This document shows, one piece after another, positions 1 through 51,298 of a DNA stretch of 64,000 nt. Source of the DNA: Mobula birostris (taxonomy: Eukaryota). The translations under genes were made by a program, and so were the position numbers. A model generated the notes under the pieces. The model was given only the letters and a program-made list of their open reading frames with translations. It was not told the origin of the DNA and ran no database searches. Each line of letters starts with the position of its first letter. Within the stretch, counting starts at the first letter, position 1. The stretch is from positions 84,569,288 through 84,633,287 of the forward strand of contig NC_092373.1 in NCBI RefSeq assembly GCF_030028105.1, in the 5' to 3' direction.

Positions 1-169
1 TCTCGGAGGGAAGAGGGATGAAAAGTGTGTTGACCAGCACTCATTCTTCTGAGTGCTCTGTCACTGAGTCCATGGTAAGTTTTTGGTAACTTCCCTGTGA
101 TGGGTATTAGAAAGTAAACAAATAAAACTACAGATGAAAGAAAAAGAAAAACAAATACTGGAAGAACTC

Positions 170-1410
170 ATCCCATTGTTGTTTGTCATCTATATCAATG
201 GTTTGATTAAGAATGTACAAGGCATGGTCAGTAAGTTTGCAGATGACACTAAAATAGGTGGTACAGTGAACAGAGAAGAAGATTATCAAAAATTACTTAT
301 TTATTGAGATACGGCACAGGGTATGCCCTTCCAGTCCTTCGAGCCTCACTGCCCAGCAATTCCCGATTTCACCCTAGCCCCAGGACAATTTACAATGACC
401 AATTAACCTTCCAACTAGTTGGTCTTTGGACTGTGGGAGGAAACTGGAGCACCCGGAGGAAACTCATGCAATCACTGGGAGAACATACAGCCTCCTTACA
501 GGCAGCAACAGGAATTGAAGCCGGGTCACTGGTACTGTAAAACGTTGTGCTAACCACTACACTACCTTGTTATAGGGCGATCTGGATCAGTTGAATAAGT
601 GGGCCAAGGATTGGCAAATGGAGTTTAGCTTGGAGAAGTATGAGGTACTGCAGTTTGGAAAGTCCAGGAACAACTTTCACAGTGAACAACAGGACCTAGA
701 AAGTGTTGTAGAAAAGAGAGACCCTATATCTTAGAGTACAAGTACATGGTTCACTGAATGTGGAGTCACAGGGAGACAGGATAAAGAAAGCTTTTGGTGT
801 GTTGGCTTTCATAAGTCAGGAATATGAGTATAACAGTTGGTGTGGAGGTCATGGTGGGGATGTACAAGACTCTAGTGAGGTTGCATTTGGAGTATTGTGT
901 TCAGTTTTAGTCTCCATGCTAAAGAAAGGATGTTATTAAACTGGAAAGGGCGCAGAAAAGATTGACAAGACTGCTGCCAAAACTTGAGGAACTGAGTCAT
1001 AAGGAGAGGTCGGACTGGCTCAGGCTCAATTCCTTGGAGTGTAGGAGACCTGAGAGGTGATTTTATAGAGATGTAGAAAACCATAGGCAGGATAAGTACG
1101 TTCGGTCTTTTTCCCAGGGTTGGAGTATCAGGAACTAGAGGACACAGGTTCAAAGTGATAGGGGAAGGATTTAAGAGGAACTTGAGGGGAAACTTTTTTT
1201 ACACAAAGAGTGGTATCTACGTGGAATCAGCTGTCAGAGAAAGGTACAATAACAACTTTTAAAAGACAGTTGGACAAGTACATGGATAGGAAAGGTTTAG
1301 AAGATAATGGGCCAAGTGCTAGTAGATGGGAATAGACTGAATGGAGCATCTTGGTCAGCATGACCAATGGGCCAAAAGGCCTGTTTCTGTGCTGTATGAC
1401 CCTATGACTT
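170..1410 (+). mobile_element. CR1-clade LINE 3' fragment, interrupted by a SINE
   Basis: SKFADDTKIGG-like RT end, LVRxHLEYCVQF-like and LRGDxIE-like motifs in broken frames, and a CR1 3' tail (ggcctgtttctgtgctgtatgac). Confidence 0.85.
302..570 (-). mobile_element. tRNA-derived SINE (V-SINE/HE1-like)
   Basis: The reverse strand starts with an A-box (TAGTGTAGTGG) and a B-box-like GGCTTCAATTCC. The core tgtgggaggaaac.ggagcacccggaggaaac is shared with copies at about 46.0 and 47.9 kb. Confidence 0.8.
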
Positions 1411-2149
1411 ATTACTCAAGCAGCACCTGTGGAAAGAGGAACCAGATCAAAGACCTTTCATCAGAACGGATACAGTACTCAATATACCAGTTTGCACTGA
1501 CTTCATTTCTTATTTCCTCCCTTCTTATCTAACGCTGCAGCATTTGCAATAGTCAAATCCAATGCTGCAACTCCCAAGTTAGGGCTTGGAAAAAATTGAC
1601 CAATGCATCTGCATTATCTTCTAGTAAATAGATCAAATAACTTCTGGAAAATGAGTGTAAGAATTTCTGGAGAGGGTGATAATTGAGAGACCAGGGAGAA
1701 TGTCTTGTGGTGGGGTGCTGAGTAAGTAGTCAAGATAGCAATTACTTTAAAAACTGGCAGGTGGGGACAGAAATGAAGAAGAAACATTAAGATATACTTA
1801 CTTCAGTGGAGAGACCAGAATAAAGGAGAGGTTACACAAAATTGTTAAAGTCACTCTTAAGTCTTGAGAGCTTCAATGTACTCAGACAAAAAGTGAGGCG
1901 CTGTTCCATGACCTTCTGTTGGACGTTGTTGGAGTAATGTGTAAGGTCAAAGTTAGAGTGGCCAGGATGGGAATAGGGCAGAGAATTAAAGCAGCAAGCG
2001 ATGGGCAGTTTAGGATTATCTATGTGGTCTGAATGATATTCTGCAACATGGTCATCCATCCATGTTGTTTTTTTCTTATTAGAGTTTTTAGTCCAAACCA
2101 TTAGATTGGAAGAAGTGCAAATGTACTTGGAAGGTCTGTTTGGGTTACA

Positions 2150-2850
2150 CTAAATTGGAAGAAGTGCAGTAGACTCCTCGAGGGTGAGGTACATTTCTCT
2201 GAAAGGTTTGTGATGAATGTACTCCTTTGATGTTAACAAGAGGATGATGATACGTGGTATCATTGTGAAGTACTCCCTTTTTACCATTCAGGAAAGGGGA
2301 TGTACTTATCATGGCTCCCTGGCCTGCTGTCCCCTCTCCACCAACATTGTCTATTTTACATCAACTTCCCATGCAAACGCGGGGAATGCAACCCCTCTTC
2401 CCATCCTGCCATCCAGAATATTGCACGGATTGATGATGGACATGCTCTTTATCATCAGATTTGGTTTTGGGGAGGGAATTAGGACTTGGATCCAATAACT
2501 CAACATGGGCATCAGTAGTGCCATCCAAATTAATGGAGGAGAAACAGAGGGCTTCCCCATCACCTGGAGTCAGGCTTGCTGCCCAGTCTCTTGTGCCTTG
2601 TCCCTGTATTGTATCAAGCCTTTTACCAAATCCAGCAGAAAGGACATAGGTAATGATGCCAGGCATTCGGGACATTCAGGACAAGGCCTCAGTGAACATG
2701 AGTGACGTCAGTGTCTTCTGTTTGGACCCACAACCTGTCAATGCCTTGCAGATGCATTGTTAAAGGAGGAAGCAAGACATGCCCTGACACATTGTAAGAT
2801 AATATATTAAACTGATGCTACAATGAATGCAGAAAGTAATGCTCCAAATG
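2150..2850 (+). mobile_element. Decayed Tx1-clade LINE RT fragment
   Basis: Broken frames give GFGEGIRTWIQ, INGGETEGFPI..GVR..CP, CIKPFTKSSRKD and a degenerate YMDDVSVF. Confidence 0.65.
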
Positions 2851-3771
2851 AATTTGCTGTATATATTATGAATGAAGTGTATTTTTGATATAAAAAGGTG
2901 TAATGTTAAATGCATCTCATCATCCATCAATTAAATATTTCCCTCCAGTGTCCCCTGCTTTTGAAGTGCTTTGAGCTCCTGTACCCAGTTTTCCACACCA
3001 GGAAATTGCTGCAGCTCTTGGCGTTAAATGGTCATCTTTTGAGATTGCTTACAGAAGGTGTTTCTGAAATTACAAAACTGTAATTGAAAATTGATTGTTC
3101 AAGTTCATATCCTGTCCATTATGAATATGTCCTAAACCAAATAACGTACATACAGAGGCTGGTCTGAGAAAACAGAACATGTTCACTTGAATTGGTCATG
3201 CACAGTATGTGTGAACTGAAGCGTCAAATCAAATAGTTAGTCAAAGGTAATAATGGACAGGGATACAAAAGCAGTAAGTTGAACTGAGGTTCTGCTGAAA
3301 TCTCATCTCATTTGAAAGTGAAGCCTAGTGCAGTACTCACAACATTTCTGTGAGGATTGTGGTCAATGTTATTCATATGAAGAAGGTAGTGTTTTGTACC
3401 CAGATGGAATGCGACTGAGTGGCACTGCGAAAAATCTGAATCTCTGCTTTTTTCAGCTTCTACGAACTGACTTTTAAGCACGTTGCTTGGGAAACTAACC
3501 GAGAAATGTTTCAAAATTAGGTTGGTGCCTCATGCAGAATGTGCATGGTTTCTGCAATTTTCTTTGGAAGTATTTACTTTTTTTTGGTGTTCAAGGAACT
3601 TACAGGTGTAACTGATATCTGGCAGTTGGCATACCTGCAGAAAATATTCAGGTAAAGACTTGGCTACAGTCAGAACTTTAAAATAAGTGAAAGACGCTGA
3701 AAACCATTGGAATTCTGGATACAAGCAAGCACAAATCTTTGGAACTGTGAACTTACATTAATCTGCACAAA

Positions 3772-4827
3772 ATGAATATATCTAAATGTGAAAATTGTGA
3801 TGCTTCCAATGTGATGTCTCTTCTGGCGGAAGAAGTGGCTACAGTGCAGTACTCCATAAATGTGTCCCACACTGCAGAACTCCGTGCCTTACGTAACCTG
3901 GCCCAGAAATCATTTCTTACTATGTCTCAGCAGGGAATGAATGGTTTGGACATTCTTCTTGTAATCTGTCTTTTTGCCTCACTGCTGGCCACTCCCTTGG
4001 TCCTGACGGCCATCTTTTCAAACAGCAGTCTTCGTCGGGAGACCAGGTACCTTCTGCTTGCCAACACTATGACGAATGATTTAATCTATTCAATACTGAA
4101 CACCTTTGTTGCTATCCTTAATACAGTGAGAGCTGCAATGCCCAAAGTAGTTTGTGAATTTATCTTGTTCCTGTTAACTGTGGCATATTCGAATGGAATT
4201 CTAACAATCACTGCTATGGTGGTGGACACTTATGTGGCCATTGGCTGGCCTCTTCACTATCCGCTACTTTTATCCCGTTCTAGAGCAATCAAGATCATTG
4301 CTTGCATATGAGTTATCTCTGTCAGCCTTTCTTCTATCTTGCTCATAATAATGCTGTGGACACAGGACGATCCATTTTCCTTGTTCACAGTGTGTGTGGC
4401 ACCCTTGGTGCTTTTGTCTTCTCCATTTGGAACATTTTTGTTAAAATGTTCATTTGGCATTGTATTTCTTTATTTTCTAACATGCATAGTACTAATATCA
4501 AGTTTCTATATATTGTTATACTGCAAAACAAAGACATTGGGGATATGGGTGAACAACTCAAGGGTAAAACAGACCTATCTCATCCATTCAATGCTGTTAC
4601 TTCTTTATTTCTCTCCTCTGGCTGTGCTGGTAGTCGGGGTAGTGATTTATGGAATGCACCCAGCTGAGACCCAGGAAGCAATCTGGATCATTGTGTCAGT
4701 AAATGATATTCTGATGTTACCAAAGGCCGTGAGCCCCTATGTTTACGGGCTGAGATATCGAGAGATTACAAACATAATCCAATCATTCTTCACTCTGAAG
4801 TCAAAAACTCAAGTAAGGCCACTGTGA
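3772..4827 (+). pseudogene. gpr148: GPR148-like 7TM class A GPCR, copy A; full-length frame interrupted by one in-frame TGA (4309-4311)
   Basis: ORFs 3772-4311 and 4339-4827 are in the same frame and join as ...KIIACI*VISVSLSSILLIIMLW.... Motifs RRETRYLLLAN, VVDTYVAIGWPLHY, KTKTLGIW, SRVKQTYLIHS and MLPKAVSPYVYGLRYRE match GPR148 as I recall it (human RQEPHYLLPAN, LHTYLAVIHPLRY, KTSGIW, SRARGTLLIHS, MMLPRAMLTYLYLLRYRQ). No frameshift. Confidence 0.85.
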
Positions 4828-7424
4828 AGTAATTTGAGCAGAAAGGTTTGTAGCTGCGATGCACTTGGTTTTTCCTTTGTCCTCCTTATGTTACCCTGAT
4901 CAGGGTTTTGCACAAGTAATGCCCACTCTGCATTGTATAATGCACAGTACTTGGACCATGGCAGAGGCTGTCTGACGGATGCCCTAGAATCTAGAGTAGA
5001 GACAGGCTAGTCAGCTCGCCAGGTTTATCATCGTGGCACCCACACCTCAAAAGTGTCTAAGTTATTATTGTGCAATTAAATCTTCAAATATTTAAAATTA
5101 AAAACACAATCGTTACATTGCCCAATCAGTACTTCTGATTTCTGACAGCTTCTCTTTTGAGTTGTAGTCCCTTTAAGTTAAAGGTCTACGGCAGATAGTT
5201 TTGAAAATCAGATTGCGATGGACAGCTATCGCCCACACTGGAGTCCATTCATTACAACAGGAACAGCCTGTTGTGAAGTATCAGTATCTGAGCAGGGAGG
5301 CGCAACTTTCAACATTCACCTGCATGTTTTGGTGGTTGAATCTCTGTAACTAGATGCTGAAGAGACTCATTGTGTTGGGGAGCTGCTTGGTGTTTCTGAA
5401 GCGTTTGCAAAGTTTTGGGTGAGGAACAGCCATTGTTTATTTTTATATGGGATGACATTCACATTGGGGAAGGTGAGTGTTTTTCAGAGGAGCTTAAACC
5501 TTAGATATGCAATGAATGAAAGAGCATTTCCTTTAGGGGTGAAAAGTTAAGTCTGTGTCTCCCCAGTAGAAATAAAGTCTGCATCCCAAATTGCAGCCAC
5601 TTATCCTGGGGTCTTATAATGGCAGCCAAATTGTCTGTTTGAATCGGGAGACATTATTGTTGAATGCAAATCAATACTCCTACTATGTATGTACTAAGTG
5701 GACTGTGATCCATTGAAACAGACTCAGTGAAAACCTCTTAGAATCACAGGAGATACTCACTATGGTAAATGGAGCATACCTCTACAGGAATAAAGTGTAC
5801 AGCATTAACTCAGGCTCTGTGTCCCCAAGATTATGCTCGCCTAACATGCTTAGACTATGGGGAACATGTTTGCAATAGAATATTATTAAAGCCCAGCCTG
5901 CAAAATAGATTTAAAACCAAATGCTGAGAATAAAATCTTGAGCAGCTTAGATAGCATCGGTGGGAAAAGAAACTACTAATATTTCAAGTCCAGGAGTTTT
6001 CATTAAAACTGTTGAATTCACTGTCACTTTCCTCCTGTGATGGCAGTGTTGAAGAAGTTATACTCTGTTCTCCAGCAGTAGTTCCGATTTCCTGTTTTTG
6101 TTTTTATTTCAGATTTTCAACACTTGGAGCTAGAGTGATCTCCATTTATTGCAAATTCGACTCCTGACAAGAAGGCAAAAGGGCGGGGGGGGGTGTGGGT
6201 GGGTGCAGATGCTGGAACAGATTCTTAGCAGGACTGTGCAAGACTATAGCAGATAACCTTCCTGTTATCTCTTTGTCTCTCTTTCTCTCATTGATTTTGT
6301 TCGAGAACTTTGTTTTCCTGTCTTGAGATTTTTAGTCCAATTCCATGCTCTTCTTATGTTTGTGGCTTTGTTTCCTGTTGTTGGGAGTAAACTCTCTGCA
6401 ATGCTCATCAAAATGACAACTATATGCTCAGGGAAAGCCTGCCTCAGTCCATTCCTTCAGCAAGGAATGTGCAGTTAGAATCAGAATCAGGTTTAATATC
6501 ACTGGCAAAAGTCGTGAAATTTTTTGCACTGCGGCAGTAATACATTGCAATACATAATAATAAAAAGCTATAAATTACAGTGGTGTGTATATTTGTGTAT
6601 ATATAAATATGATGGTGCTGGCTGAGTTTGCAACTTTCTGCAGCTCTTTCTGATCCTGTGCAGTCTGCCATAAATTACAGACTGCACCTGCTCCTCTTCC
6701 CAACAGAATTTTGAAAATAGAAACAAAACAATAAAAATGATTCACAATTGTTCATAGTATTCTATTTTTCCCTATCAAGGTTTCTTTGTTGTGCGAATGG
6801 TTAGTCATCAAACATTCCGTTCTTAATCAGTATGTGTCCGCGTGGTAGGCAAACAATTGTAGTCATCAGGCTATCATGAGTGTGATTTTTGTAATATGAA
6901 GCAAGAAGTGCCCAGAACAAACTTTAACAACTTGCGTGAAGTTTAAAACAGAACTGTAATTCATTCCAGGTTATTTCCTGGGTGATTTATGAGCAAAGTC
7001 ATTGAAAGCTACAGGGTAGTATTTACAGATAAAGAACAGCTTGAGGATGAACTGTGGGCACGAATGATCATGTGTACAATGTCAAACAGAAGTATTTATG
7101 AATAGATATAATCAATTATGTGAAATATATGTAAGGTAGAGAAAACAGAGATCATTTGTACAACAGTTTAAAGTTTTTTACATATCTTTAATTTCAGAGA
7201 ATGTCTTATTGTTTATTATTTGTAGTGTTTGTACACATTATTTTATATGTTGTATGATTTTTTTAATAAATGTTTCAGAAGAACTCTGGGCTGTGGTGAT
7301 CTGTGAGCCTTGACTAGGATTTTTTTTTAACTTGGATAAATTCAGGTTGAACCCAGTGGACAGGTATGAAACCACCTACAGTACGGAGCACGATCTGGAA
7401 CTCAGTAAATCTGAATGGTTGCTC

Positions 7425-8640
7425 ATCAGAATCAGGTTTATTATCACTGCCATGTGTCGCGAAATCTGTTAGCTTAGCAGCAGCAGTTCAATGTAATATA
7501 TAATATAGAAGAAGAAAAAGAATAAAATAATAATAATAAATAAGTAAATCAATTACAGTATATGTGTATTGAATAGATTAAAATCATGCAAAAAAACACA
7601 AATAATATATATTAAAATAGTGAGGTAGTGTTCACGGGTTCAATATCTATTTAGGAATTGGATGGCGGAGGGGAAGAAGCTGTTCTTGAATCACTGAGTG
7701 TGTGCCTTCAGGCTTCTGTATCTCCTGCCTGATGGTAACAGTGAGAAAAGGGCATGCCCTGGGTGCTGGGGGTCCTTAATAATGGATGCTGCCTTTCTGA
7801 GACACCGCTCCTTGAAGATGTCTTGGGTACTTTGTAGGCTACTGCCCAAGATGGAGCTGACTAGATTTACAACCTTCTGCAGCTTCTTTCGGTCCTGCGC
7901 AGTAGCCCCCCCCCCCCCCCCCCCATACCAGACAGTGATGCAGAATGCTCTCCACGGTACATCTATAAAAGTTGTTGAATGTTTTTGTTACCATACCAAA
8001 TCTCTTCAAACTCCTAATGAAGTATAGACGCTGTCTTGCCTTCTTTAAAACTGCATTGATATGTTGGGACCAGAGATCTTGACACCCAGGAACATGAAAC
8101 TGCTCACTCTCTCCACCTCTGATCCCTCTATGTGGATTGGTACGTGTTCCTTCGTCTTGCCCTTCCTGAAGTCCACAATCAGCTCTTTCATCTTACTGAC
8201 ATTGAGTGCCAGGTTGTTGCTGCAACACCACTCCACCAGTTGGCATATCTCACTCCTGTACACCCTCTCGTCTCCATCTGAGATTCTACCAACAATCATC
8301 AGCAAATTTATAGATGGAATTTGAGCTATGCCTAGTCACACATTCATGGGTATATAGAGAGTAGAGCAGTGGGCTAAGCACACACCCCTGAGGTGCACCA
8401 GTGTTGATTGTCAGTGAGGAGGAGATATTATCATTAATCCACACAGATTGTGGTCTTCCGGTTAGGAAGTTGAGGATCCAATTGCAGAGGGAGGTGCAGA
8501 GGGAGGTACAGAGGCCCGGTTTCTGTAACTTCTCCATCAGGATTGTGGGAATGATGGTATTAAATGCTGAGCTATAGTCGGTGAACAGCATCCTGACGCA
8601 GGTGTTTGTGTTGTCCAGGTGGTCTAAGGCTGCGTGAAGG
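7425..8640 (-). mobile_element. Rex1/Babar-like LINE, 5'-truncated
   Basis: [29 protein letters not shown] and NNLALNVSKMKELIVDFR motifs; 3' tail (tctgat)n. Confidence 0.88.
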
Positions 8641-8945
8641 CCGCATTGAACTCATTCTGAGCTATAGACTTTTGACAAGTGGAGCCCACTGCCTGGATTC
8701 CCCACTTGGAATCCCCGTTCCCCCGCATTTACCTGAATCAGATCTGAAAGTTTGAACGTGCAGGCTGAAGGCATCCCGAACATGTCCTGTGGTGCCAGAA
8801 GTTCGTGTCGAGTTCAATTACAGAATGCACTGACAAAGTTTCAGGCTCTGATCTGTCACCAGCTTTGCGATTTCGTCTCTGTATACACAGTATATGAAGA
8901 TCAAAGCACATTGGAGCACTGTGCTTAATTATTTCAATTGCTTTA

Positions 8946-9515
8946 AGAACATAAGACATAGGAGCAGTATATGGCCATTTTGCCCATTGAGTCTGCTCTG
9001 CTATCATGGCAGATTTATTATCCCTCTCAACCCCATTCTCCTGCCTTCTCCCCGTAACCTTCGACATCCTAACAAATCAAGAACCTATCAATCTCCCATT
9101 TAAGTATACCCAAATGACTTGGCCTCCAGAGCCCTCTGTGACAAGAATTACTCAATTTTATCACCCCCTGTCTTACGAAATTCCTCCTCACCTCTGTTCC
9201 AAATGGACACCCCTCTATTCTGAGGCTGGTATTGGAGTCCTCCACTATAGAAAACATCCTCTCCACATCCACTCCATCTAGGCCTTTCAATATTCAATAG
9301 GTTTCAATGAGATTCCCTCTCATTCTTCTAAACTCCAGCAAATTCAGGCCCAGAACCATCAGGCACTCCTCATACATTAACCCTTTCATTCCTGGAATCA
9401 TTCTTGTGAACTTCCTCTAGACTCTCTCCAATGCCAACATAATACTCCATGTGGTCTGACCAATGCCTTATAAGGCTTCAGCATTATATCCTCGCTGTAA
9501 TGTTCTAGTCTTAAA
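8946..9515 (-). mobile_element. CR1 LINE 3' fragment
   Basis: KPYKALVRPH and MKGLDGVDVERMF motifs; tail aagaacataagacatagg. Confidence 0.85.
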
Positions 9516-10264
9516 CCATGGATACTCATAGATGGTGGATTACACAATCTTACTAAAAAATAATTGGTGATGAATTCATTTTCAGTAATTAATAAATAAA
9601 AGGCACTAGGCAACACAGGGCATCATGATTGTGTAGTGGTTAGCTAAATTAATGACTGAAATCCATTTAACAACTTAAACTACAAAGGATTCAAGTTTTT
9701 AATGTTTCTTTCCAGAGCTATTAAGTTGCTTTGTAATTCTTTCTTGCTAAATAGTTAATGAAGAATCCAGTTCCTAGTCGTGTATGAAAATGATTTATTG
9801 GTTACAAATAGGTCATCTGTATTCTGATGCAAAAACAAATAAATAATTGAATATAATGAAAATTATTTAGCATTTCAATTGCAAAGCATTGACAGACACT
9901 GTCACACAACTAAATGGGCAGTAAACATTAAACAGGTTATTTGAAGTATCAGCTTGAAAAATCAGCTTTAACAGATACTGAGCATAACCACCCAGTAATA
10001 ACCAAAAATGTGGCTATAGTTTGGGTAAACTGATTTAATATCAATTCCTTAAATTACAGACTCAAAGCTTTTAAGAACCAATTCATGAATGTGTGTGTGT
10101 GTGTCCATGTGTAAGATAGAGAGAGATGCACATATGTAAACAAAAGAGACATCTGCATCTGTGAGCGAGAGACTAACTGTGTGTGAGAGAGCTATGTGCA
10201 AGCGTCAATGAGAGGATTCCTCTGTCTCTTATATTTTGGTAATGGTTAAAAAAAATCCAAGAGG

Positions 10265-10662
10265 ACCACCACTTGTCGTGGTTTGGGGGTTTTTGTGCCT
10301 CAATGAACCAGAAAGCTATGTGTTGGCTGGAGTCAGGGCTTTACGTTTTGGCTCTTGGTAGAGTTGCCCATGCCAACAAGGTCAAAGGGTAGAGGGCAGA
10401 CTAAAAGTGGTCCACCCATCCTCTGGGTTTGGGGGTTCAGCTCAGGCTAACAACACTGACAGGTGAAACAAAATTGTTATGGAAACTATACGAAGAATCC
10501 TTCTGCATATGAGTGCAATGGTGTTCCTGAGTCTCCACCAGGGACTTGCATGACTGACAGTAGTAAAAACCGAAAGAAAGCTACTGACTCGATGAACACT
10601 GCCAGACATGGAGGACTGTCATTGCTGCCCTAAACACCAGCGGCATTACAGGCAGTAAGTAA
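10265..10662 (+). mobile_element. Short non-autonomous RTE-like element (5'UTR head joined to 3' tail)
   Basis: The head ccacttgtcgtgg...gtgcctcaatga...agctatg and the tail gctgccctaaacaccagc...cagtaagtaa resemble RTE-clade termini. No ORF between them. Confidence 0.55.
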
Positions 10663-10669
10663 CGGGAAA

Positions 10670-11370
10670 GAAAAGGCAATCACCTAAACGAGTGAAGTGT
10701 GGAAGAACCTTAGCGTTCTAGTGCATGAATCACAAAAACGTCGCCGGCAGGTCCAACAAATAGTTAAGAAGGCATTTTGGCCTTTATTGCCAATGGACTG
10801 GAGTTTACGAACAGGGAGGTTTTGTTACAGTTGAATATGGTGTTGGTAAGCCTGCACCTGGAATACTATGCACATCTCTGGCCCTCTTAAATAAAAAAGG
10901 ACATAGTAACATTGGAGGCATTTTTCAAAGGAGATTCACCAGACTAATTCCCGGGATGAAAAGGTGTTCATATCATGAGACAGTTTCAGCCTTTATTCCT
11001 GGGAGTTTAAGAAATGATGATGATCTTATTGAAGCACACATGATTCTAAGCAGGCTAGACAGGTAGCTGTTGGGTTGATTCCACGAGTGGGACAGATACA
11101 AACAAGATATCATACTGACAAAATAAGGGAATGGTCATATAAAATTGAGGTGCATAAAAATTTCATCTTTTAGGGAAAAGTGAATTTTTGGAATCATCTA
11201 CCACAGACAATGCCATGTCATAAAATATTTGAAATATCATGCAACTGAGGGTCAAGGGATAGTAGAGGAATTGAGGCCAGCATACTCAGCCATAGTAATA
11301 TTGAATGATGGGGCAGGGGTTGAAGAGTCGTGTGGCCTACTACTGCACCTATTTTCCTGTGTCTTTCTTG
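10670..11370 (+). mobile_element. Old CR1 LINE 3' fragment
   Basis: Degenerate LVxxHLEY and FTRLIPGM motifs; tail ggcctactactgcacctatttt. Confidence 0.75.
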
Positions 11371-11377
11371 TGAATGA

Positions 11378-11514
11378 NNNNNNNNNNNNNNNNNNNNNNN
11401 NNNNNNNNNNNNNNNNNNNNNNNNNNNNNNNNNNNNNNNNNNNNNNNNNNNNNNNNNNNNNNNNNNNNNNNNNNNNNNNNNNNNNNNNNNNNNNNNNNNN
11501 NNNNNNNNNNNNNN
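11378..11514. other. Assembly gap
   Basis: N run. Confidence 1.
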
Positions 11515-11773
11515 AGAAATCCAAGTGTGAGGGATACATATGTATGAAAGAGGTGCGCATGTATGAAACTGATGTGAATATGTGAAAGACACATGCGACA
11601 GCAAGAGAAATGTGCATGAGTTAGTGAGAGGGAAAGCTGTGCAAGTGAACGAGGCGAGCACATGTGTGTGAGAGTGTGTTTCAGTTGTGCTATGTTTCAT
11701 AACTCCCAAACTTTAAATTAATAGAAAGCAAAACACGGACCAGGATAATTTGTGTGTTTTAGTTTCGTTTTTA

Positions 11774-12288
11774 CGAGAGGCGATTGATAAGTTTGTGGCC
11801 TTAAGGTAGGAGGAGTCAATTTTAGAAAACCTAGCACATTTATTTTTCAATATAGTCCCCTCCTACATATACGCACTTAGTCTAACGGTCATGGAGCATA
11901 CGGATTCCTTCTTTGTTGAAGCTGGTGTCTCGGACCTCCAGAAAGTGGGCCACAGCAGGGGTGATTGATAAGTTTGTGGCCTAAGGTAGAAGGAGATAAG
12001 TTATACAGCTCTCGTTACATGCACGTGCAGTTCAACTCTTTGAGTGATTATGCAGAAAGTTTGAAGTTAATAACTCACCTGCTTCTACCTTAGGCCATGA
12101 ACTTATCAATCATCCCTGCTGTGGGCACTTTCTGGCGGTCCAAGACGCCAACTTCTACAAAGACCGCTCCACGACCGCTGGACGAAGTGTGTAAATGTAG
12201 GAGGGGACTATGTTGAAAAATAAATGTGTTAGGTTTCCTAAAATTGACTGCTTCTACCTTAGGCGACGAACCTATTAATCATCCCTCG
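11774..12288. mobile_element. Mariner-type palindromic MITE inserted in the left LTR
   Basis: TA|CGAGAGGCGATTGATAAG ... CTATTAATCATCCCTCG|TA with a TA TSD; long inverted arms. Confidence 0.85.
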
Positions 12289-12478
12289 TACTTTAAGCAA
12301 GGCACACATGTATGACATGGTGGTGTGATGATGTATGCTATTTTTACATATAACACACAATGATTTATTTAAATAAACAAAGAATGCTTAATCAAACAAT
12401 ATGTTTACAATATTACTCAAATATTAAATACACAACACTCCTCCCTGCTTAGCTATAAACTCCAACTCAATAGAGAAT

Positions 12479-13160
12479 ATAGAACATAAAACATAGAATA
12501 GTACAGAACATTACAGGCCCTTTGGCCCACAATGTTGTGCTGACCTTCAAACCCTGCCTCCCATATAACCTCCCACCTTAAATTCCTCCATATACCTGTC
12601 TAGTAGTCTCTTAAACTTACTAGTGTATCTGCCTCCACCACTGACTCAGGCAGTGCATTCCACGCACCAACCACTCTCTGAGTTAAAAACCTTCCTCTAA
12701 TATCCCCCTTGAACTTCCCACCCCTTACTTTAAAGCCATGTCCTCTTGTATTGAGCAGTGGTACCCTGGGGAAGAGGTGTTTGCTATCCACTCTATCTAT
12801 TCCTCTTATTATCTTGTACACCTCTATCATGTCTCCTCTCATCCTCCTTCTCTCCAAAGAGTAAAGCCCTAGCTCCCTTAATCTCTGATCAGAATTCATA
12901 CTCTCTAAACTAGGCAGCATCCTGGTAAGTCTCCTCTGTACCCTTTCCAATGCTTCTACATCCTTCCTATGGTGAGGCAACCAGAACTGGACACAGTACT
13001 CCAAGTGTGGTCTAACCAGAGTTTTATAGAGCTGCATAATTACATCGGGACTCTTAAACTCTATCCCTCGACTTATGAAAGCTAACACCCCATAAGCTTT
13101 CTTAACTACCCTATCTACCTGTGAGGCAACTGAACTATCTACCTGTGAGGCATCTACCTG
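12479..13160 (-). mobile_element. Young CR1 3' fragment nested in the Gypsy element
   Basis: Open ORF 12600-13088 (LVRPHLEYCVQFW...MRGDMIEVYKI); (atagaac)n tail; gagaat repeated at both junctions. Confidence 0.9.
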
Positions 13161-16100
13161 TGAGAATGCATCTCAACTTATATAAATATATACTGTATTA
13201 TACAACTCTATAAAGACATCCACAGCATAGTAAATTTTAAATTGCCCCATTCAGGCCTAAAGATTTCAGCTCTGTGGAAGATTTCTTACTCTTGTGGCAT
13301 AATGTCTTTCCTGACAAGGGAGGTCACTTTGTTGGGCAGATGAGAGTTGTGGCTGTGAAACAATCTCAGGTTCTGGGGCCTCCTCCGTGGTGTTTGTAGG
13401 AGATGATTATAGAAATGCAGGAAGCGGTTTTGACAGTTCTGGATACCTTTCTTCTGGATGTGTTGCCATCCCCAAGGGTGCATGACAAGCTTCACTGGAT
13501 GATATAGATCATAATGTGTGAGTACAGTGTCTGACATCACCATTTCTTTTACCTTTTCGAAAATCACCTCACACTGCTTTGTCCATTGCCATTTCTTCCT
13601 GATCTGTAGTAATGAGTTCAAGATGTGGAACACAGTAGCCTGGTTTGGCAGGAACCTGTTATAGTGATTGACAAATCCTAAAAAGGACTGCAACTGTGCC
13701 ATGTCCTTTGGCATTGAGGGTATCCATCACTGCTTGAATTTTCTCAGCGCACTTGTTTAATCCTTGTGCATCACAATAGGTGATGAGGTGATGCTTGGTC
13801 TAAAGAATTCACACTTGTTGCATGATGCTCTGAGTGCATAATCTTTTTTACACTGTCTTGAAATTTTGGAGATGTTCCTTGTCATCCTCACTAGTAATAA
13901 CAATGTCATCCAGGTAACACTATGAGCCTGGGCAGCCTTGCAGTACTTGGTCCATTGCTTTCTGCCAGAATACAGGTGCAGATGCTACTCCAAAAATAAG
14001 CTTATTATAGTGATAAAGTCCTTTGTGAGTGTTTATGGTGAGAAAAACTTTCCATCTCCATCTGTAGTTAAGCCTCAGCTAGGTCCACTTTGCTGAAGTG
14101 TTTCCCTGCAGAAAGGTTTGCAAAGATAGCCTCTATCCCGGGCAGAGGGTATTGATTTCCTTTCAGTACTGGGTTAATGGTGACCTTAAAATCACCAGAC
14201 ATCCTGTCAGACCCATTCTTCTTGGCTACTGCCCATGGGCTCGACTCAACTTAGAAAAGAAATCCTTCAGCCTCCATGTGATCCAGCTCACTGGCTACTT
14301 CATTAAGGATTGTATAAGGAACCTGTTGGGCTTCACAAAACTTGGGTGCAACATTTTCATTTAGCACTATTTTACCCTTAATATGTTTGAGTTTTCCAAT
14401 GTCATCCCTGAACACTACTGTGACATCATCCAGTACCTTTCTTAATTCGCTTCTAGTTGACTCTATTACAGGGAATGAGGCATGTAAGTAGTACGTGGAT
14501 CTTCAATTAAGCTGCAGTTGTGTCAGCCAATTAAGCCCCCACAATACTGGCCCTCCTATTTTGACCACATATAAGCCCAAATTGGCTTGTTGGTTGTTGT
14601 ATCTCACTGTTGCAAATGTCATTCCCACAGGAAGTAACTTTTCTCCAGCTCTTAGTTGGACATCTGCAGGCTTCAGTCCAGTATCTTTGAAATGCGCTCA
14701 AACCCATTTTGTAGAACGACTGTAACAACCAAGCCGGAGTCCAATTCCATCTTAATTAGTTTGTTGTTCACTTCTGGTGTAAGCCATGTTGTTAGTCTAC
14801 TGTTAGTTTTCACATTGTAAATCCCATGGCTAATCAATCCTGTGCCATTCACTTCATTGTCAGATTTTACAACATCTGATGCAGATTAGTGCTTTTTTTA
14901 AAGCTGCAATTTGACTTTTTATCCTTTTCTTTTCCCTGTGCAGTTCATTTATTTTTGTCTGCCCAACATGCTCTTTGTATGTTTCTTACTTTGCTGCATT
15001 TTCTGCAAGTTTCGCCTTTAAACCTGCACGAATCTGCTGTAAGCGAACCCCTGCCACAACAGTAAAATAATCTGTTTGGCCAGGGTGTTTTCTGTTTAGA
15101 TATAGCAATTTTGTTCACGCTCACTTTCATTCCTGACTTCAACTCAATTGCATCTCTCTCTGCTGTTTCCTTTGATATAGCTATTTTAACTGCTCTTTTA
15201 AATTTAAGTTGCACTTCAGTTAGGAGGCAGTTTAAATGTTTTGTTGTAAAATTCCACAAACTAAATGATATCTCAGTGCATCGTTAAGCCCACTACTGAA
15301 CTGACAATGCTCACTCGACAACTTCTTCAATTCAGTCATGTAAACTGAAAGGAACTCCCCTTCCTTTTGATTCTGCTTATGAAGCCTAAAGCAATTAACA
15401 ATGGGTTCGTTCTAAATATTCCTGCATTACTTTCACAGCGAAGCTAATTTTGGCTGATTTACTTCTGGTAAGATGGTGGTGCATGCAAACGCAGTGGCCT
15501 CTCAGGAGCCAACCAATGGTGCTTTGTTCTCTGTAAAACTTGTTTTTTACAAACCAAAGACTATTCTACTCCAAGAGCTTCAGGCACTGCAGGGCTAATC
15601 CATCAGTGAGCTGCTCGTTGATGCTCTTTTAAAAAAAAATTATCATTATTATCACCCGGTACTCACTGTTTATGAACTTGTGAATTCTTCCATTTTCTGC
15701 CTTTTTTTTTAAAACTCTAATTTCTCACTGCGCTTCAACGGGTAGGTAGTCGTCTCGGGTTCATTTCAAACTTCCTCATCACCATTGTTATCGTTTGTAA
15801 CTCCAAAATATTAAACTAATTGAAAACAAAACACGGAGCCAGGATAACTCATGTACGTTACTTCCGCTTTTACTTTAAGCCATATGCGCATGTATCACGC
15901 AATGATGTATGCCATCCACACATTTTTACATATAACCCATAATTAATTATTTAAATGAACAAGAATGCTTAATCAAACAATATATTTACAATAATACTCA
16001 GATATTAAATACACAAGTTATGCATGTGTGGATATGTGAGAAAGAGAGATATACATGTATGTGATATGTACTAGTGAAGGATAGGTGAATAATGTTTTGT

Positions 16101-16960
16101 GTTCTGGAAACCTTGTCCTCATATTAATTACTTTCCTGTCATGTATGCAAGTTGCATCAGTGTTGAGTTGTGAACATCCTTCCAGCAAAGTTAATTGTTT
16201 TGTCCACTGGTTCCAAATAAATTTACCTTACACTACTGTGTTATCTGAGCTTGTTTCCCTCTAAGATTACTTGCAGTTAGATGACTCTTAGACTGTACCA
16301 CTGACTGGTTAGTTCCTAAATTAGCCTCTAACCTCTGTCCTTAAAAAAGCTAGAAATTGTACCTCATTACATTTGCAAATCAACTAATTAACAGAAGAAT
16401 AAATTAAATAAAGAAATCTTCTTCAAAACAGGAGGTGGAACCATTTTTGAGCAACCCACATCCTGGATAGATTCACCCATTTTGTGTCATTTATCCACAA
16501 TAAGACAGTAATGAAACATTGTTTTTCCAGTTTGGATGATTACTAGTACTTTTAAGGATAGAGGCTAGAAACTGATTTGTGGTTTAAATTGTTATTTGGA
16601 CATTCTATGAGTGTTATTTAATTGCAAATAATCCAAGAGGAAAACTATCTCAAATACCAACACTGTGTAAAGTGCATTCATTTGGAATCAGAGTGCAAAT
16701 AAAACAGGTAACATTGCTGGAAAGAAGTTCATAAATCATCTATGGAGCTAAGTTTTGTGCCAGGAAATGAAAGACATTAGTGTGTGGCACACAAAAGCTA
16801 TATGGAATCATTATTCATTCATGAATTACTAAGAGGTTCATCACTTTAGTTCAGCCAACAATAATGAAGTAGGGATCCTAAATGCAAGCCATTGGCAGTT
16901 TTCCTATGGTTGAAAGTTTCGTTTGAATGAATCAAGTATCAGTAGATTTGTTTGAATGAA

Positions 16961-18037
16961 TCAAGTATCCTGATGGTGCTGATCAGTGGGGCTTATACGC
17001 CTAATATGTCTCAGCAATGGTAAAGTTTGGATTGACTTTGTCACCTCTCGGTACCGCAGTGCATAAACATATGGGGAAACTGCTCTGGGTAACATCATAA
17101 GGAAATTTGTCATTGACATATTGATCCAGAGTACTGTCACATAGGAAATCAGGTCCATTTCTTGGAGTGCACCCCCTGCCACTAAACCAAGCAAGGGGAT
17201 GAAGTAAAAGAATAGCAGCATTGACTGAATAAGGTAAGTCTGCCTTGCCCTGGAGTTGCCAGTCCATATTCCTGACGTCTTAGTTTTGCAGTATAACATG
17301 ACATAGCTACTGGAAATCAGTACTAAACATATTAGAAAGTAAATTACTGTAAAACTGTAATACATTTTTAAGATAGGTAATCGAAGGAAAGAAAACATGA
17401 ATGTTAAAGGAAAAATACAAATCGATAACGTGGACAATGGATTCTGTTGAGTTCCTAGTGTTATTATAAAAATGACAGATGGAGCTGCGGCAGAAACAAT
17501 ACAAATACAGATAATGATTTTCAGGGCCCTGGATCGAGGTAAAAGTGAGGGATAACGAAGGGGCCAGCTAACAGCCACATAAGTGTCCACCACCATTGCA
17601 GTAACTGTCAGAATGCCATTACAATAAGACACTGTTAACACATACAATAGTGTTTGGCAAACAACTTTAGGCATCCCGACACCTGCAGCATTAAGGATGT
17701 CGATGAAGGTGTTCAGTACTGAATAAATTAGATCATTAACCAAAGTGTTGGCAAGCAGCAGGTACCTGGTTTCCTGATAAAGGTTGTTGTTTGAAAAGAT
17801 GGCAATCAAGACAAGAGGTGCAGCCAACAATGAGGCAATAAGGCAAATTATCAGAGGAATCATCAAAATATGTGTTTTGGAGTGTCCCAAAGCATTCACC
17901 CATGCTTGGATGTCTTCGTGCTGAAGAAAATCCACAGAATGGGATGCATTTGCAGGGAACTGCACAGTAACGAGTTCTTCAGCTAGAAGAGACATCTCAT
18001 TGTGGTCGGCACGATGATTGCAATTATATAAATTCAT
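16961..18037 (-). CDS. gpr148: GPR148-like orphan class A GPCR, copy B, intact 358 aa, single coding exon
   Basis: Seven hydrophobic segments. Motifs YQETRYLLLAN, VVDTYVAVSWPLRY, KTSGIWTGNSRARQTYLIQS and MMLPRAVSPYVYALRYRE are diagnostic of GPR148. N-terminal N-x-S sequon (NAS). Confidence 0.92.
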   Translation of the reverse strand: MNLYNCNHRADHNEMSLLAEELVTVQFPANASHSVDFLQHEDIQAWVNALGHSKTHILMIPLIICLIASLLAAPLVLIAIFSNNNLYQETRYLLLANTLVNDLIYSVLNTFIDILNAAGVGMPKVVCQTLLYVLTVSYCNGILTVTAMVVDTYVAVSWPLRYPSLLPRSRALKIIICICIVSAAAPSVIFIITLGTQQNPLSTLSICIFPLTFMFSFLRLPILKMYYSFTVIYFLICLVLISSSYVMLYCKTKTSGIWTGNSRARQTYLIQSMLLFFYFIPLLGLVAGGALQEMDLISYVTVLWINMSMTNFLMMLPRAVSPYVYALRYREVTKSIQTLPLLRHIRRISPTDQHHQDT

Positions 18038-18509
18038 TACATACCACTTGAAATCAACTCATGACCACAAATTAGTGTTTGCTTTCATCCAGTACAGCAA
18101 TGGCCTTCAACTTGATTTGCTCATTTTGATCAAAATCCCTTCAGGCTTACTGCAGATAATACTTGTACTCATGTGATCCTGTATATTCTTGAAACGTAAA
18201 GAAGAAAAATCCTCCTCTTCAAATGTAAAAGGAACCATTCTTCACGCAATTCCTATATGCAGCTCGGAGCTGGTGCAGTATGTGCTTCCTTATTTTCATA
18301 AACATATTCATACAAATAAATCTTGCAGAGGCTGAAACCAAGATCCAGACAAATGGAATTTTATCTTCATTTGATTAAAAAAAATTCTCTACCAAAAATG
18401 ATGTTCAAATGGAATTGGTTTAGTGCCCTAAAAATCAGCACAGCACCAAATCTGTGGCTTGTAGCAGAGCAGAGACACACTGCCACTTCATTTGCCAGGA
18501 GACAGGTTG

Positions 18510-18560
18510 TTGATTTGACACTCATTGGACACACTGTTTGATTTGACACTCATTGGACAC
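18510..18560. repeat. Direct duplication of 23 bp (ttgatttgacactcattggacac x2, period 28)
   Basis: Exact copies at 18510-18532 and 18538-18560. Confidence 0.9.
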
Positions 18561-18869
18561 GTTTTATCTGATCAATGCCAGCGAACAGAAGGATTTCATT
18601 AATTAAAACAGATTCTAAATGAGTAACAGCTCCATCTCGCAGCTAACACTAAACCACATTTGTCACTTCTCATGCTCCAATGACTGAATTTGTTTTTAAT
18701 AGCAATATCATTATTGGTTTTGTACAGAAAATCCTATAAGTAACCTGTTATGACAATGCGACATTGGTACTGCAGTCATCTGAATAAACTTACCCAAGTA
18801 GATCACCTTGCAGTTTTTGACCTATTACATTGCCCAACTATTGATCGACACATCTCATTCCTGTAAGTG

Positions 18870-19014
18870 GCCACCCCGAGCACGCTTTCCATCCGTGCCG
18901 GGTTGAGTGTCGAGCTAGCCACCCAGCCTCGTAAAAAATACAAGGATCGAGTCAGGAACGTTCATAATGTGACCCAATTAATCCTGACACCATGTGCCAG
19001 ACAAGAAAAAAAAA
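18870..19014 (+). mobile_element. 145-bp A-tailed retroposon with 13-bp TSD
   Basis: ATTCCTGTAAGTG at 18857-18869 and 19015-19027; A-run at the 3' end; CpG-rich body. Confidence 0.8.
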
Positions 19015-19149
19015 ATTCCTGTAAGTGTTAAGTTTGCCTCACGGGCTCAGGAAGGGAATGTTGGGAGAACACACACCAGACCTTTTTGAGCGGTAGGTGG
19101 TTGAGATGAGCAACCTCTAGATCCCGAGCACCATCAACTCAGATGATCT

Positions 19150-19327
19150 CAAAGATGAGAAAATCTTCAGATGCTGGAAATCCGAAGCAACACACACAAA
19201 ATGCTGGAGGAACTCAGCAGGCCAGGCAGCATCTATGGAAAAGAGTAAACAGTCGATGTTTCAGGCTGAGGCCCTTCCTCAGGACTGCCTGTTGTATTCC
19301 TCTAGCATTTTGTGTGTGTTGCTTTGT
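19150..19327 (-). mobile_element. Mini Penelope-terminus element with inverted arms and a hammerhead core, inserted in a Rex1-like fragment
   Basis: TSD CTCAGATGATCT at 19138-19149 and 19328-19339. Sequence homologous to the terminus of the Penelope at 31230-31366. Confidence 0.8.
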
Positions 19328-20844
19328 CTCAGATGATCTATTTTGGGCCCAACACATTGATGAGGGTGGCATGCCAGCAGCTCTTCTTTGTCATAAGTCT
19401 GAGGAGATTTAGTATGTCACCAGAAGACCCTTGAATATTTCTAGATACATTCAGTGGGCACTTTATTAGGTATCTCTTAATATTGTGATCTTCTGCTGCT
19501 GTAGCCCATCCATTTCAAGTTTCAGCATGTTGTGCATTAGGTGTTGCAACTGAACATAACATTTAGTGCTGTCCTTCTGCACATCACTGTTGTAATGCAT
19601 GATTATTTGAGTTACTGTCACTTTGGACACAGTATTTAGTTACACACAGCACACATAACTACGGTAAACTTCAATACAGACACAAAATAGTATTAGCACC
19701 AGTCCTCGAGTTGGATGGCATGAAGATTGATGGTGCACAGTATTTGTGGCAATTATACGTTTTTGCACAGTTCTGCTGCTACAAAACAAATTTCACCTCA
19801 ACTAAGTCAGCGACAATAAATTTGATTCTGATTGCCAATAACTTATTCTTATGATGTCCCTGGAGTTCACTGATAACCTACTTTCAATCTGATGGTGTGG
19901 GTTCTGAGGTGGCTAACGAAGCCACCAATGACAACTCCTGACACTTCTGCAGACAGGGCATCTGGTGTTAGAAAGTGTAGGTGGCTCGCGAGGAGATACA
20001 TTTCATTTACTGCTTTTGCAAGTCTGATGCATGGTTTTAGTTCTCAACACCATCCAGGATACTTCTTCCCCACTTGGAATTTGCTTGTTATTGACACATG
20101 TACTGATGTATAGTGAAAAAATTGTTTTGCATGTCACCCCTACAAATCATTTCATCATATCAGTACACTGAAGTCATACATGGAAAAGCAACAAGAGCTT
20201 GCAGAATAAAGTGTTAGTTACAGAGAATGTGCAGTGCAGGTGGACAATAAGGTAGATAGTGGGGTCAAGACTCGATCTCATCATGCTAGGGACCACTTTA
20301 GCAGTGGGATAAAGCTGACCTGCGCCTGGTGGTACATGCTTTAAGGACAATATTTTCCTCTGTCTCGCTGGTAATCTTTTCCCATTTTGAGCTCAGAATG
20401 GAGGGTCAGCTATGCTAATGATGTGAATTGTTTAGTATTCAGTCCAACTAAGACCTTTTGGGTTAGGGTCTAATCTGTCATTTAACCGTTTTTTATGCTT
20501 GCTCACAGTTATATAATCCCGTATTTGTAATTTCAGTGAATTTTTAGTAATTTACACTATCTTCCTTATTGCAGCCTGTGTCATGCCATAAATAGAACTG
20601 TTTCATAGGGTGATCTTATAAAGGAATTTCCTTCCATGTCTAGCTTGAACTAGTTTTCAGTATTATGAAAGACCACAAGGAAGATTGTTTACTAGAGGGA
20701 GCTGGTTAGAGTTAGTTACCTGTTGCTGTGTTACTCACTCACAGTACCTTACTGTTATTGCTTTCCTTTCAGCATCTAATAATCAGCTGCCACTGCATGA
20801 TTTGCACCTCATTCTTGCCTTCTGGACAATATTATCTCTAGATC

Positions 20845-49729: not shown

Positions 49730-51298
49730 ATATAGACATTAAGAAAGAGGATGTGCTGGAGCTTCTGGAGAGCATCAAGTTGGATAAGCCACTGGGACCG
49801 GACCAGATATACCCCAGGCTACTGTGGGAGGTGAGGGCAGAGATTGCTGTTTGGTAATGATCTTTGTATCATCGAGGACAGGAGAGGTTCCAGTGGATTA
49901 GAGGGTTGCAGATGTTGTTCCCTTATTCAAGAAAGGGAGTAGAGATAGCCCAGGAAATTGTAGATCAGTGAGTGTTACTTCAGTGGTTAGTAAGTTCATG
50001 GAGAAGATCCTGAGAGGCAGGATTTATGAACATTTAGAGAGGCATAATATGATTAGGAGTAGTCAGCATGGCTTTGTCAAAGGCAGGCCGTGCCTTACAA
50101 GCCTGATTGAATTTTTTGAGGATGTGACTAAACATATTGAAGGTAGAGCAATAGATGTAGTGTATATGGATTTTAGCAAGGCATTTGATAAGGTACCCCA
50201 TGCAAGGCTTATTGAGAAAGTAGGGAGGCATGGGATCCAAGGGGACTTTGCTTTGTGGATCCAGACTTGGCTTGCCCATAGAAGGCAAAGAGTGGTTGTA
50301 AACAGGTCATATTCTGCATGGAGGTTGGTGACCAGTGGTGTGCCTCAGGGATCTGTTCTGGGGTCCCTTGTCTTCCTGATTTTTATAAATGACCTGGATG
50401 AGGAAGTGGAGGGATGGGTTAGTAAATTTGCTGATGATACAAAGGTTGGGGGTGTTGTGGATAGTGTGGAGGGCTGTCAGAGGTTACAGCGGGACATTGA
50501 TAGGATGCAAAACTGGGCTGAGAAGTGGCAGATGGAGTTCAACCCAGATAAGTGTGAGGTGGTTCATTTTGGTAGGTCAAATATGATGGCAGAATATAGT
50601 ATTAATGGTAAGACTTTTGACAGTGTGGAGGATCAGAGAGATCTTGAGGTCCAAGTCCATAGGACACGCAAAGCTGCTGTGCAGGTTGACTATGGTAAGA
50701 AGGCATACAGTGCATTGGCCTTCATCGACCGTGGGATTGAGTTTAAGAGCCGAGAGATAATGTTACAGCTGTATGGAACCCTGGTCAGACCCCGCTTGGA
50801 GTACTGTGCTCAGTTTTGGTCACCTCACTACAGGAAGATTGTGGAAACTAGAAAGGGTGTAGAGGAGATTTACAAGGATGTTGCCTGGATTGGGGAGCAT
50901 GCCTTATGAAAATAAGTGGCAGAGGATGAGAGGTGACCTGATAGAGGTGTATAAGATGATAAGAGGTATTGATCGTGTGGATAGTCAGAGGCTTTTCCCC
51001 AGGGCTGAAATGGCTAACACGAGAGGGCACAGTTTTAAGGTCTTTGGAAGTAGGTTCAAAGGGGATGTTGGGTTAAGTTTTTTATGTAGAGAGTGCTGAG
51101 TGTGTGGAATGGGCTGCCGGAGACTGTGGTGGAGGCGGATACAATCGGCTCTTTTAAGAGGCTCCTGGATAGGTACATGGAGCTCAGAAAAATAGAGGGC
51201 TATGGGTAGCCCTAGGTAATTTCTAAAGTAAGTACATGTTCGGCACAGCTTTGTGGGCCGAAGGGCCTATATTGTGCTGTAGGTTTTCTTTGTTTCTG
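49730..51298 (+). mobile_element. CR1 LINE RT and 3' end
   Basis: 313-aa ORF 49968-50909 with QHGF, DFSKAFDKV, SGVPQGSVLG and KFADDTK. Confidence 0.95.

What the first reader, a model, noticed from the sequence alone, without database searches (positions are those of the whole stretch)
4309..4311. Single in-frame TGA in GPR148 copy A sits exactly on a Cys codon of its paralogue (TM4, Trp 4.50 position)
Seen: copy A reads RAIKIIACI-TGA-VIS and copy B reads RALKIIICI-TGT-IVS (codon 17501-17503, -). The 352-codon frame of copy A has no other stop or frameshift. Known: this column is the near-invariant class A GPCR Trp4.50 (human GPR148 ALIWLVA), and TGA/Cys pairs between homologues are the classic signature used to find selenoproteins. 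Inference: the options are (a) a young pseudogene or segregating null allele (TGG/TGT>TGA), (b) an assembly error, (c) Sec or readthrough recoding, or (d) a split receptor re-initiating at ATG 4351. I favour (a). Copy A has also lost the TM4 Pro and one TM7 codon relative to copy B, the context is TGA-GTT rather than TGA-CTAG, and I found no convincing SECIS by eye. A recoded GPCR would still be remarkable.
Basis: partly seen in the sequence, partly recalled or inferred. Interest (0 to 1): 0.7.

Follow-up and report, generated by a model that had tools for sequence, protein, structure and literature searches.

The report
Recently broken orphan receptor in ray
The stop codon in this ray's orphan-receptor gene (a GPR148-like copy) is real and replaces a tryptophan codon that related rays still have, so the gene is likely an ordinary, recently dead duplicate and not a selenoprotein or a recoded receptor.

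Summary
The TGA at 4309-4311 is real: contigs from two runs of the probable source sample read it. It comes from one G>A change in a Trp codon. All 5 other-species contigs covering the site read TGG, and 12 of 13 copy-A orthologue proteins have Trp. The paralogue's Cys is a separate change seen only in stingray/devil-ray copy B; 143 of 148 homologues have Trp. The TGA/Cys pair is therefore coincidence, not a selenoprotein signature. No SECIS was found, and UGA-GUU is a strong stop context. Changes on this lineage look neutral (7 nonsynonymous, 2 synonymous; too few for significance). A third cluster gene about 6.4 kb left of the window is also broken here (start loss, frameshift) but intact in Mobula hypostoma. 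The missing TM4 Pro and the TM7 codon gap are ancient copy-A traits, not decay. Verdict: a young nonsense pseudogene or null allele in a decaying GPR148-like cluster of a devil-ray relative. Fixation and expression are untested, and readthrough stays possible at about 4%. The scan's notes held nothing on this gene.

The parts
3772..4827 (+). GPR148-like copy A, single coding exon, 351 codons with one internal stop
   Evidence: Pfam 7tm_1 E 1.3e-15; 96% to Mobula hypostoma protein P0003; sister to it in the tree
4309..4311 (+). Premature TGA at codon 180, the conserved TM4 Trp (4.50 label is from general class A knowledge); ancestral TGG; context ATA-TGA-GTT
   Evidence: TGA in X1 and X4 contigs; A>G at 4311 in X5, X9, X14, X15, X17; hydropathy peak at residues 175-193
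3772..4311 (+). Predicted truncated product, 179 aa: N-terminus, TM1-TM3, ICL2 and the first turns of TM4
   Evidence: helix placement inferred
4351..4827 (+). Downstream in-frame ORF from Met194 (158 aa, ECL2 to C-terminus). The Met is also present in TGG-bearing relatives and is absent from skate and shark copy A
4351..4395 (+). Predicted RNA hairpin starting 40 nt after the TGA (z -1.9 and -2.2); unchanged in the closest TGG-bearing relative
   Evidence: none of X5's 19 differences falls in 4351-4395
16961..18037 (-). GPR148-like copy B, intact 358-aa ORF, ancient paralogue (52% identical to A)
   Evidence: this exact protein is in NCBI/UniRef
17501..17503 (-). TGT (Cys) at the same column in copy B; a derived Trp>Cys shared with Mobula hypostoma, Hemitrygon and Hypanus copy B only

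Best explanation
One G>A change turned the conserved TM4 tryptophan codon of GPR148-like copy A into a stop in this ray's lineage, which likely makes the gene a young pseudogene (or a null allele) that would yield only a three-helix fragment unable to signal. Shown: the TGA, its TGG ancestor, and its origin after the split from the closest relative compared (98% DNA identity). Also shown: copy B is intact, and a third cluster gene is broken in this assembly. Inferred: termination at UGA-GUU is efficient; the fragment lacks TM4-TM7 and cannot fold as a receptor; selection on the cluster relaxed in this lineage. Not known: whether the allele is fixed in the species and whether the gene is still transcribed.
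For: TGG in 5 of 5 other-species contigs covering the site; X15 is weak, at depth 5 and 21 nt from its end. Trp in 12 of 13 copy-A orthologue proteins. Polarised coding changes on this lineage: 7 nonsynonymous, 2 synonymous and the stop; omega 1.2-1.5, against 0.57-0.71 on the sister branch and 0.38-0.47 on listed deeper rows. With so few changes, no second stop is expected even under neutrality: P(no second stop) 0.67-0.75. UGAGUN is a strong terminator with readthrough below detection in mammalian cells (PMC5829715, passages). No SECIS by Rfam or a strict pattern scan. Neighbouring copy C has a start loss, a frameshift and 14 lineage-specific residue changes against 5 in M. hypostoma. GPR148 is dispensable elsewhere: missing in dog, rat and mouse (PMC2651185, table and passage). 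Copy B's protein from this genome is in the collection, whereas copy A's 90% cluster has only three members, all from other species.
Against: The omega difference is not significant (Fisher p 0.62 against the sister branch, 0.27 against sister plus deeper rows), and the deeper-branch count uses only the 40 of 76 rows shown. There is no second lesion in copy A. Only one individual was seen at the site, and contigs drop alleles, so heterozygosity is not excluded. A hairpin with z about -2 lies downstream. Copy C's lesions were not checked against reads, and its frameshift lies in a T run. Niimura 2009 calls gains and losses rare in this gene group, and Syed 2023 found only 2 or-family pseudogenes in 11 cartilaginous-fish genomes (whether this cluster was counted is unclear).
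Confidence: 0.92

Rival explanations
1. Pseudo-pseudogene: the UGA is read through in some cells (near-cognate tRNA insertion, or A-to-I editing back to UGG), so full-length receptor is still made.
For: A single lesion in an otherwise whole frame. Precedent in a chemoreceptor, Drosophila sechellia Ir75a (as described in PMC7244557, passage). A downstream hairpin with z -1.9 to -2.2. Editing of this A would restore the exact ancestral codon.
Against: The context is UGA-GUU, not UGA-CUAG. The hairpin starts 40 nt away and predates the stop. A4311 sits in only a 3-bp predicted stem, with no long complement in window 1-20000 (best 24 of 41); a 5' G neighbour is disfavoured by ADAR (recalled). Changes on this lineage look neutral, and the neighbouring gene is decaying.
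Confidence: 0.04
2. The fragments work: a 179-aa three-helix product and/or a 158-aa product re-initiated at ATG 4351 act as a split receptor or a modulator.
For: An in-frame ATG lies 40 nt after the stop with A at -3.
Against: Residues 180-193, most of TM4, would be in neither piece. Met194 is present in TGG-bearing relatives and absent from 9 of 13 copy-A orthologues. No related 30-184-aa protein was found at E<=1e-10 among 437 candidates.
Confidence: 0.02
3. Assembly error, or the minor haplotype of a heterozygote that was mistaken for the gene.
For: Only one sample covers the site, and contigs collapse alleles (tool notes).
Against: 2 of 2 runs of that sample that were laid give TGA with 0 differences over 1.1-1.2 kb, and all four of its runs hold 1.00 of the sampled words. 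A base-calling error is very unlikely; heterozygosity is less likely but open.
Confidence: 0.015
4. Selenoprotein GPCR: UGA is decoded as selenocysteine, with Cys in the paralogue.
For: The TGA aligns with TGT in copy B.
Against: The ancestral residue is Trp (143 of 148). Cys occurs only in 4 stingray/devil-ray copy-B proteins, and orthologues of A have TGG. No SECIS_1 match at E<=10 in 4300-12000; the strict pattern gave 0 hits and the loose pattern 2 weak ones (-6.4 and -6.3 kcal/mol). In positive controls on two deiodinase loci of this genome, Rfam found a SECIS in 1 of 2 and the pattern a stronger candidate in the other.
Confidence: 0.005

Closest known systems
Intact elasmobranch GPR148-like copy A (Mobula hypostoma XP_062903378, Hemitrygon akajei XP_072895106, Hypanus sabinus XP_059843267)
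   Same: Orthologous by tree; 91-96% identical; same missing TM4 Pro and same TM7 length.
   Different: They have Trp at codon 180 and a complete frame.
GPR148 / theta-group OR-like orphan GPCRs (Niimura 2009, PMC2817399, passages)
   Same: Class A 7tm_1 orphan; homologues are auto-named GPR148. Lost in dog, rat and mouse (PMC2651185).
   Different: Usually one copy per species in that paper, whereas elasmobranchs have three old paralogues and two are broken in this assembly. Which paralogue is theta1 (human GPR148) was not resolved.
Drosophila sechellia Ir75a pseudo-pseudogene (seen only through PMC7244557)
   Same: A single premature stop in an otherwise whole sensory-type receptor gene.
   Different: There, readthrough to a functional protein was shown; here there is no expression or readthrough evidence and the context is a strong terminator.
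UGA-CUAG readthrough GPCRs OPRL1 and OPRK1 (PMC4132726, passages)
   Same: A UGA inside an extended class A GPCR reading frame.
   Different: Those are terminal stops with a CUAG motif conserved across vertebrates; this is a mid-helix, lineage-private UGA-GUU.

Membership tests
Young nonsense pseudogene / null allele | Disabling mutation present in the DNA, not an assembly slip | tested here: met
   X1 and X4 contigs read TGA; same sample, possibly the assembly's source
Young nonsense pseudogene / null allele | Orthologues intact, lesion recent and lineage-restricted | tested here: met
   TGG in 5 of 5 other-species contigs; Trp in 12 of 13 orthologue proteins
Young nonsense pseudogene / null allele | Neutral evolution (dN/dS near 1) on the affected branch | tested here: inconclusive
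   omega 1.2-1.5 from 9 changes; not significantly different from the sister branch
Young nonsense pseudogene / null allele | No full-length protein made | not testable with these tools
   no RNA or ribosome data could be laid
Young nonsense pseudogene / null allele | Fixed in the species | tested here: inconclusive
   one sample covers the site; X11 (near-identical organism) covers only 4686-4900
Eukaryotic selenoprotein | UGA aligns to Cys/Sec across homologues | tested here: not met
   143 W, 4 C, 1 L of 148
Eukaryotic selenoprotein | SECIS element in the 3' UTR | tested here: not met
   each method caught only 1 of 2 control loci, so sensitivity is partial
Eukaryotic selenoprotein | UGA conserved in orthologues | tested here: not met
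   TGG in all 5 other species covering the site
Programmed UGA readthrough / pseudo-pseudogene | Leaky context (UGA-C, CUAG) or a close 3' stimulatory structure | tested here: not met
   UGA-GUU; the hairpin starts at +40 and predates the stop
Programmed UGA readthrough / pseudo-pseudogene | Measured readthrough giving functional protein | not testable with these tools
   needs a reporter, ribosome profiling or proteomics
GPR148-like class A GPCR | 7tm_1 domain and clustering with proteins named GPR148 | tested here: met
GPR148-like class A GPCR | One-to-one orthology to human GPR148 (theta1) rather than theta2 | tested here: inconclusive
   no mammalian row in the tree; deep forks open; quick tree only

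The most novel reading that the evidence does not exclude
A vertebrate GPCR pseudo-pseudogene: a fixed mid-TM4 UGA that is read through, or edited back to Trp, in the cells that express it, keeping a full-length orphan receptor alive in this devil-ray lineage.
Probability: 0.04. Interest if true: 0.75.

Novelty: new member of a known kind. Interest (0 to 1): 0.17.

Why it matters
As a pseudogene it matters modestly. It marks a recent, lineage-specific decay of two of three GPR148-like orphan receptors in a devil-ray relative while M. hypostoma keeps all three, in a gene group described as rarely lost. That makes a small natural knockout, useful only once the ligands are known. It is also a clear example of a false selenoprotein signature made by two independent hits on a Trp codon. 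If readthrough were shown, it would be a vertebrate counterpart of the fly Ir75a case.

Tried and rejected
No RNA holder was listed for 3700-4900, so expression was not assessed. A genome-wide RF00031 search found nothing anywhere and is uninformative; deiodinase loci were used as controls instead. X11 did not cover the TGA. A search for shorter relatives (30-184 aa) gave no hit at E<=1e-10. Splicing out the stop: the scan found only one consensus-like donor in 4001-4311 (about 4129), and using it would delete TM3-TM4, so this was rejected. Pairing of copy A with antisense copy B to guide editing: best complement only 24 of 41 and many poly(A) signals in between, rejected. Treating the TM4 Pro and TM7 gap as decay was rejected (13 of 13 orthologues share them). 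The careful tree did not finish; the quick tree was used. The primary Ir75a paper was not held. Copy A is absent from the listed hits and cluster members for catsharks, carpet sharks, Heptranchias, Pristis and Amblyraja; loss and annotation gaps could not be told apart, so this is not used as evidence. Literature searches: 'GPR148' gave 51 papers, 30 listed; 'Mobula + genome assembly + gene loss' gave 4; a theta/pseudogene/cartilaginous-fish search gave 2; a catshark OR search gave 6, 5 listed. None of the listed titles or abstract starts concerns this locus. Supplements (for example the gene tables of PMC10116579) were not read and may list these genes.

Full report
Observation. Window 3772-4827 (+) is a single-exon class A GPCR frame of 351 codons with one internal TGA at 4309-4311 (Pfam 7tm_1). 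Copy B on the minus strand (18037-16961) is intact, 52% identical, and has TGT at the aligned codon. Codon 180 falls in the hydropathy peak at residues 175-193, which is TM4. A DNA search of the 4.0-Gb genome found one copy of A and one of B. The closest named protein is from Mobula hypostoma (96%), so the organism is likely a devil-ray relative.

Is it real? Two runs of the sample that may be the assembly's source (X1, X4) each give one contig over the whole stretch with no difference, and all four runs of that sample hold 1.00 of the 116 sampled words. This argues against an assembly slip. It is one individual, and contigs drop alleles, so neither homozygosity nor fixation is proven. X11, from a differently labelled organism, is identical over 4686-4900, including three derived letters, but does not reach the TGA.

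Direction and age. All 5 other-species contigs covering the site show A>G at 4311, that is TGG (X5, X9, X14, X15, X17). X15 is weak (depth 5, 21 nt from its end). X5's five amino-acid differences equal those of the M. hypostoma protein, so those two are likely not independent. Twelve of 13 copy-A orthologue proteins have Trp; the basking shark has Leu. X5 differs at only 19 of 1101 letters, so the stop is young. The quick tree puts A, B and a third paralogue C in separate clades that each hold sharks and rays, with each gene of this genome sister to its M. hypostoma orthologue (48 of the 149 aligned proteins were used, mostly dropping teleost rows).

The Cys is a coincidence. Across 148 homologues the column is Trp 143, Cys 4, Leu 1. 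The four Cys are copy B of this genome, M. hypostoma, Hemitrygon and Hypanus; sawfish, skate and shark copy B keep Trp. So Trp>Cys happened once in stingray/devil-ray copy B, and TGG>TGA happened separately and later in copy A. Selenoproteins show UGA against Cys throughout a family (established knowledge); this does not. Rfam gave no SECIS at E<=10 in 4300-12000. My pattern scan gave 0 strict hits and 1 weak loose hit in 4312-8300, against 0.33 per shuffle, and 2 weak loose hits in 4300-12000. On two deiodinase loci of the same genome, Rfam found SECIS_1 in one (E 0.043) and the pattern found a -12.4 kcal/mol candidate in the other. Each method alone is therefore about half sensitive, but neither rang here.

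The missing TM4 Pro and the one-codon TM7 gap are in 13 of 13 copy-A orthologues. They are old features of a working paralogue, not decay.

Selection. Using X9 and X14 as outgroups, this lineage has 7 nonsynonymous changes, 2 synonymous changes and the stop; the sister has 5 and 3; listed deeper rows have 11 and 10 (only 40 of 76 rows were shown, and site 3861 has uncertain polarity given X17). Omega is 1.2-1.5, 0.57-0.71 and 0.38-0.47. This fits neutrality on this branch but is not significant (Fisher p 0.62 and 0.27). Only 3-4% of substitutions create stops, so having no second stop among 9 further changes is expected (P 0.67-0.75).

Neighbourhood. A protein search of the genome found a third paralogue about 6.4 kb left of the window, head-to-head with A (L005:1287-2322, minus strand). 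Against the intact 345-aa M. hypostoma orthologue it has ATA at the start codon, a one-base frameshift in a T run in TM6, and the TM7 motif PYLYAIRY changed to PYFNTIRY. It carries 14 lineage-specific residue changes against 5; copy B has 5 against 4. These lesions were not checked in reads. Two of three cluster genes thus look dead in this lineage, which fits relaxed selection (inference).

Recoding rivals. The context is UGA-GUU. In mammalian cells +4 G promotes termination and UGAGUN readthrough was below detection (PMC5829715, passages), whereas efficient readthrough genes use UGA-CUAG (PMC4132726, passages). Applying this to a ray is inference. A hairpin at 4351-4395 (z -1.9 and -2.2) counts mildly for readthrough, but it starts 40 nt away and is unchanged in the TGG-bearing sister. 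Editing back to UGG lacks a long duplex. A split receptor would miss residues 180-193. The fly Ir75a case (PMC7244557, passage) shows such stops can be leaky in neurons, and with no RNA data I leave 4% for it.

Known context. GPR148 is an orphan of the OR-like theta1 group, reported in testis, brain and spinal cord, usually single-copy and rarely lost (PMC2817399, passages), yet missing in dog, rat and mouse (PMC2651185, passages). Cartilaginous-fish or genes are few, stable and not expressed in the catshark nose (PMC10116579, passages). My searches listed no paper on this locus (listings only). The scan's notes had nothing near this place and none with the word GPR148.

Verdict. A real, young TGG>TGA nonsense change, most likely an ordinary pseudogene or null allele in a decaying three-gene orphan-receptor cluster (confidence 0.92). 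New member of a known kind; interest 0.17.

Noticed in passing
L005:1287-2322 (-) = G000:C5 about 84561868-84562903, about 6.4 kb left of the window: Third GPR148-like paralogue, broken in this assembly by start-codon loss, a frameshift in a T run and loss of the TM7 Tyr; intact in M. hypostoma and in skate and shark proteins. It lies head-to-head with copy A, so both dead genes might have shared upstream control (untested).
   Followed up: partly
window 17501-17503 (-): Copy B of stingrays and devil rays has kept an open frame with Cys in place of the near-invariant TM4 Trp in all 4 proteins seen; basking shark copy A has Leu there.
   Followed up: partly
window 16915-16969: Two 26-nt copies 29 nt apart overlap copy B's stop codon; copy B here has a 6-residue C-terminal extension that M. 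hypostoma, Hemitrygon and Hypanus lack.
   Followed up: no
proteins P0123/P0124 versus copy A and P0003: Copy A end branches are 0.003 in the two dasyatid stingrays but 0.022 and 0.014 in the Mobula pair, hinting that constraint relaxed in devil rays before the stop arose.
   Followed up: partly
protein P0021: The Mustelus copy-B protein model lacks about 80 residues around TM5-TM6, possibly another broken copy or a gene-model error.
   Followed up: no
L013:1079-1145 and L014:about 2258: Two single-stretch deiodinase genes with in-frame TGA on contig C1, with a SECIS_1 match and a SECIS-like candidate respectively; the multi-exon deiodinase on C16 appears twice about 46 kb apart.
   Followed up: no
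window 12600-13037, 21297-23126, 29589-30614, 49998-50909: Several ORF fragments that look like LINE/Penelope-type reverse transcriptase or endonuclease pieces (family labels recalled, not searched).
   Followed up: no
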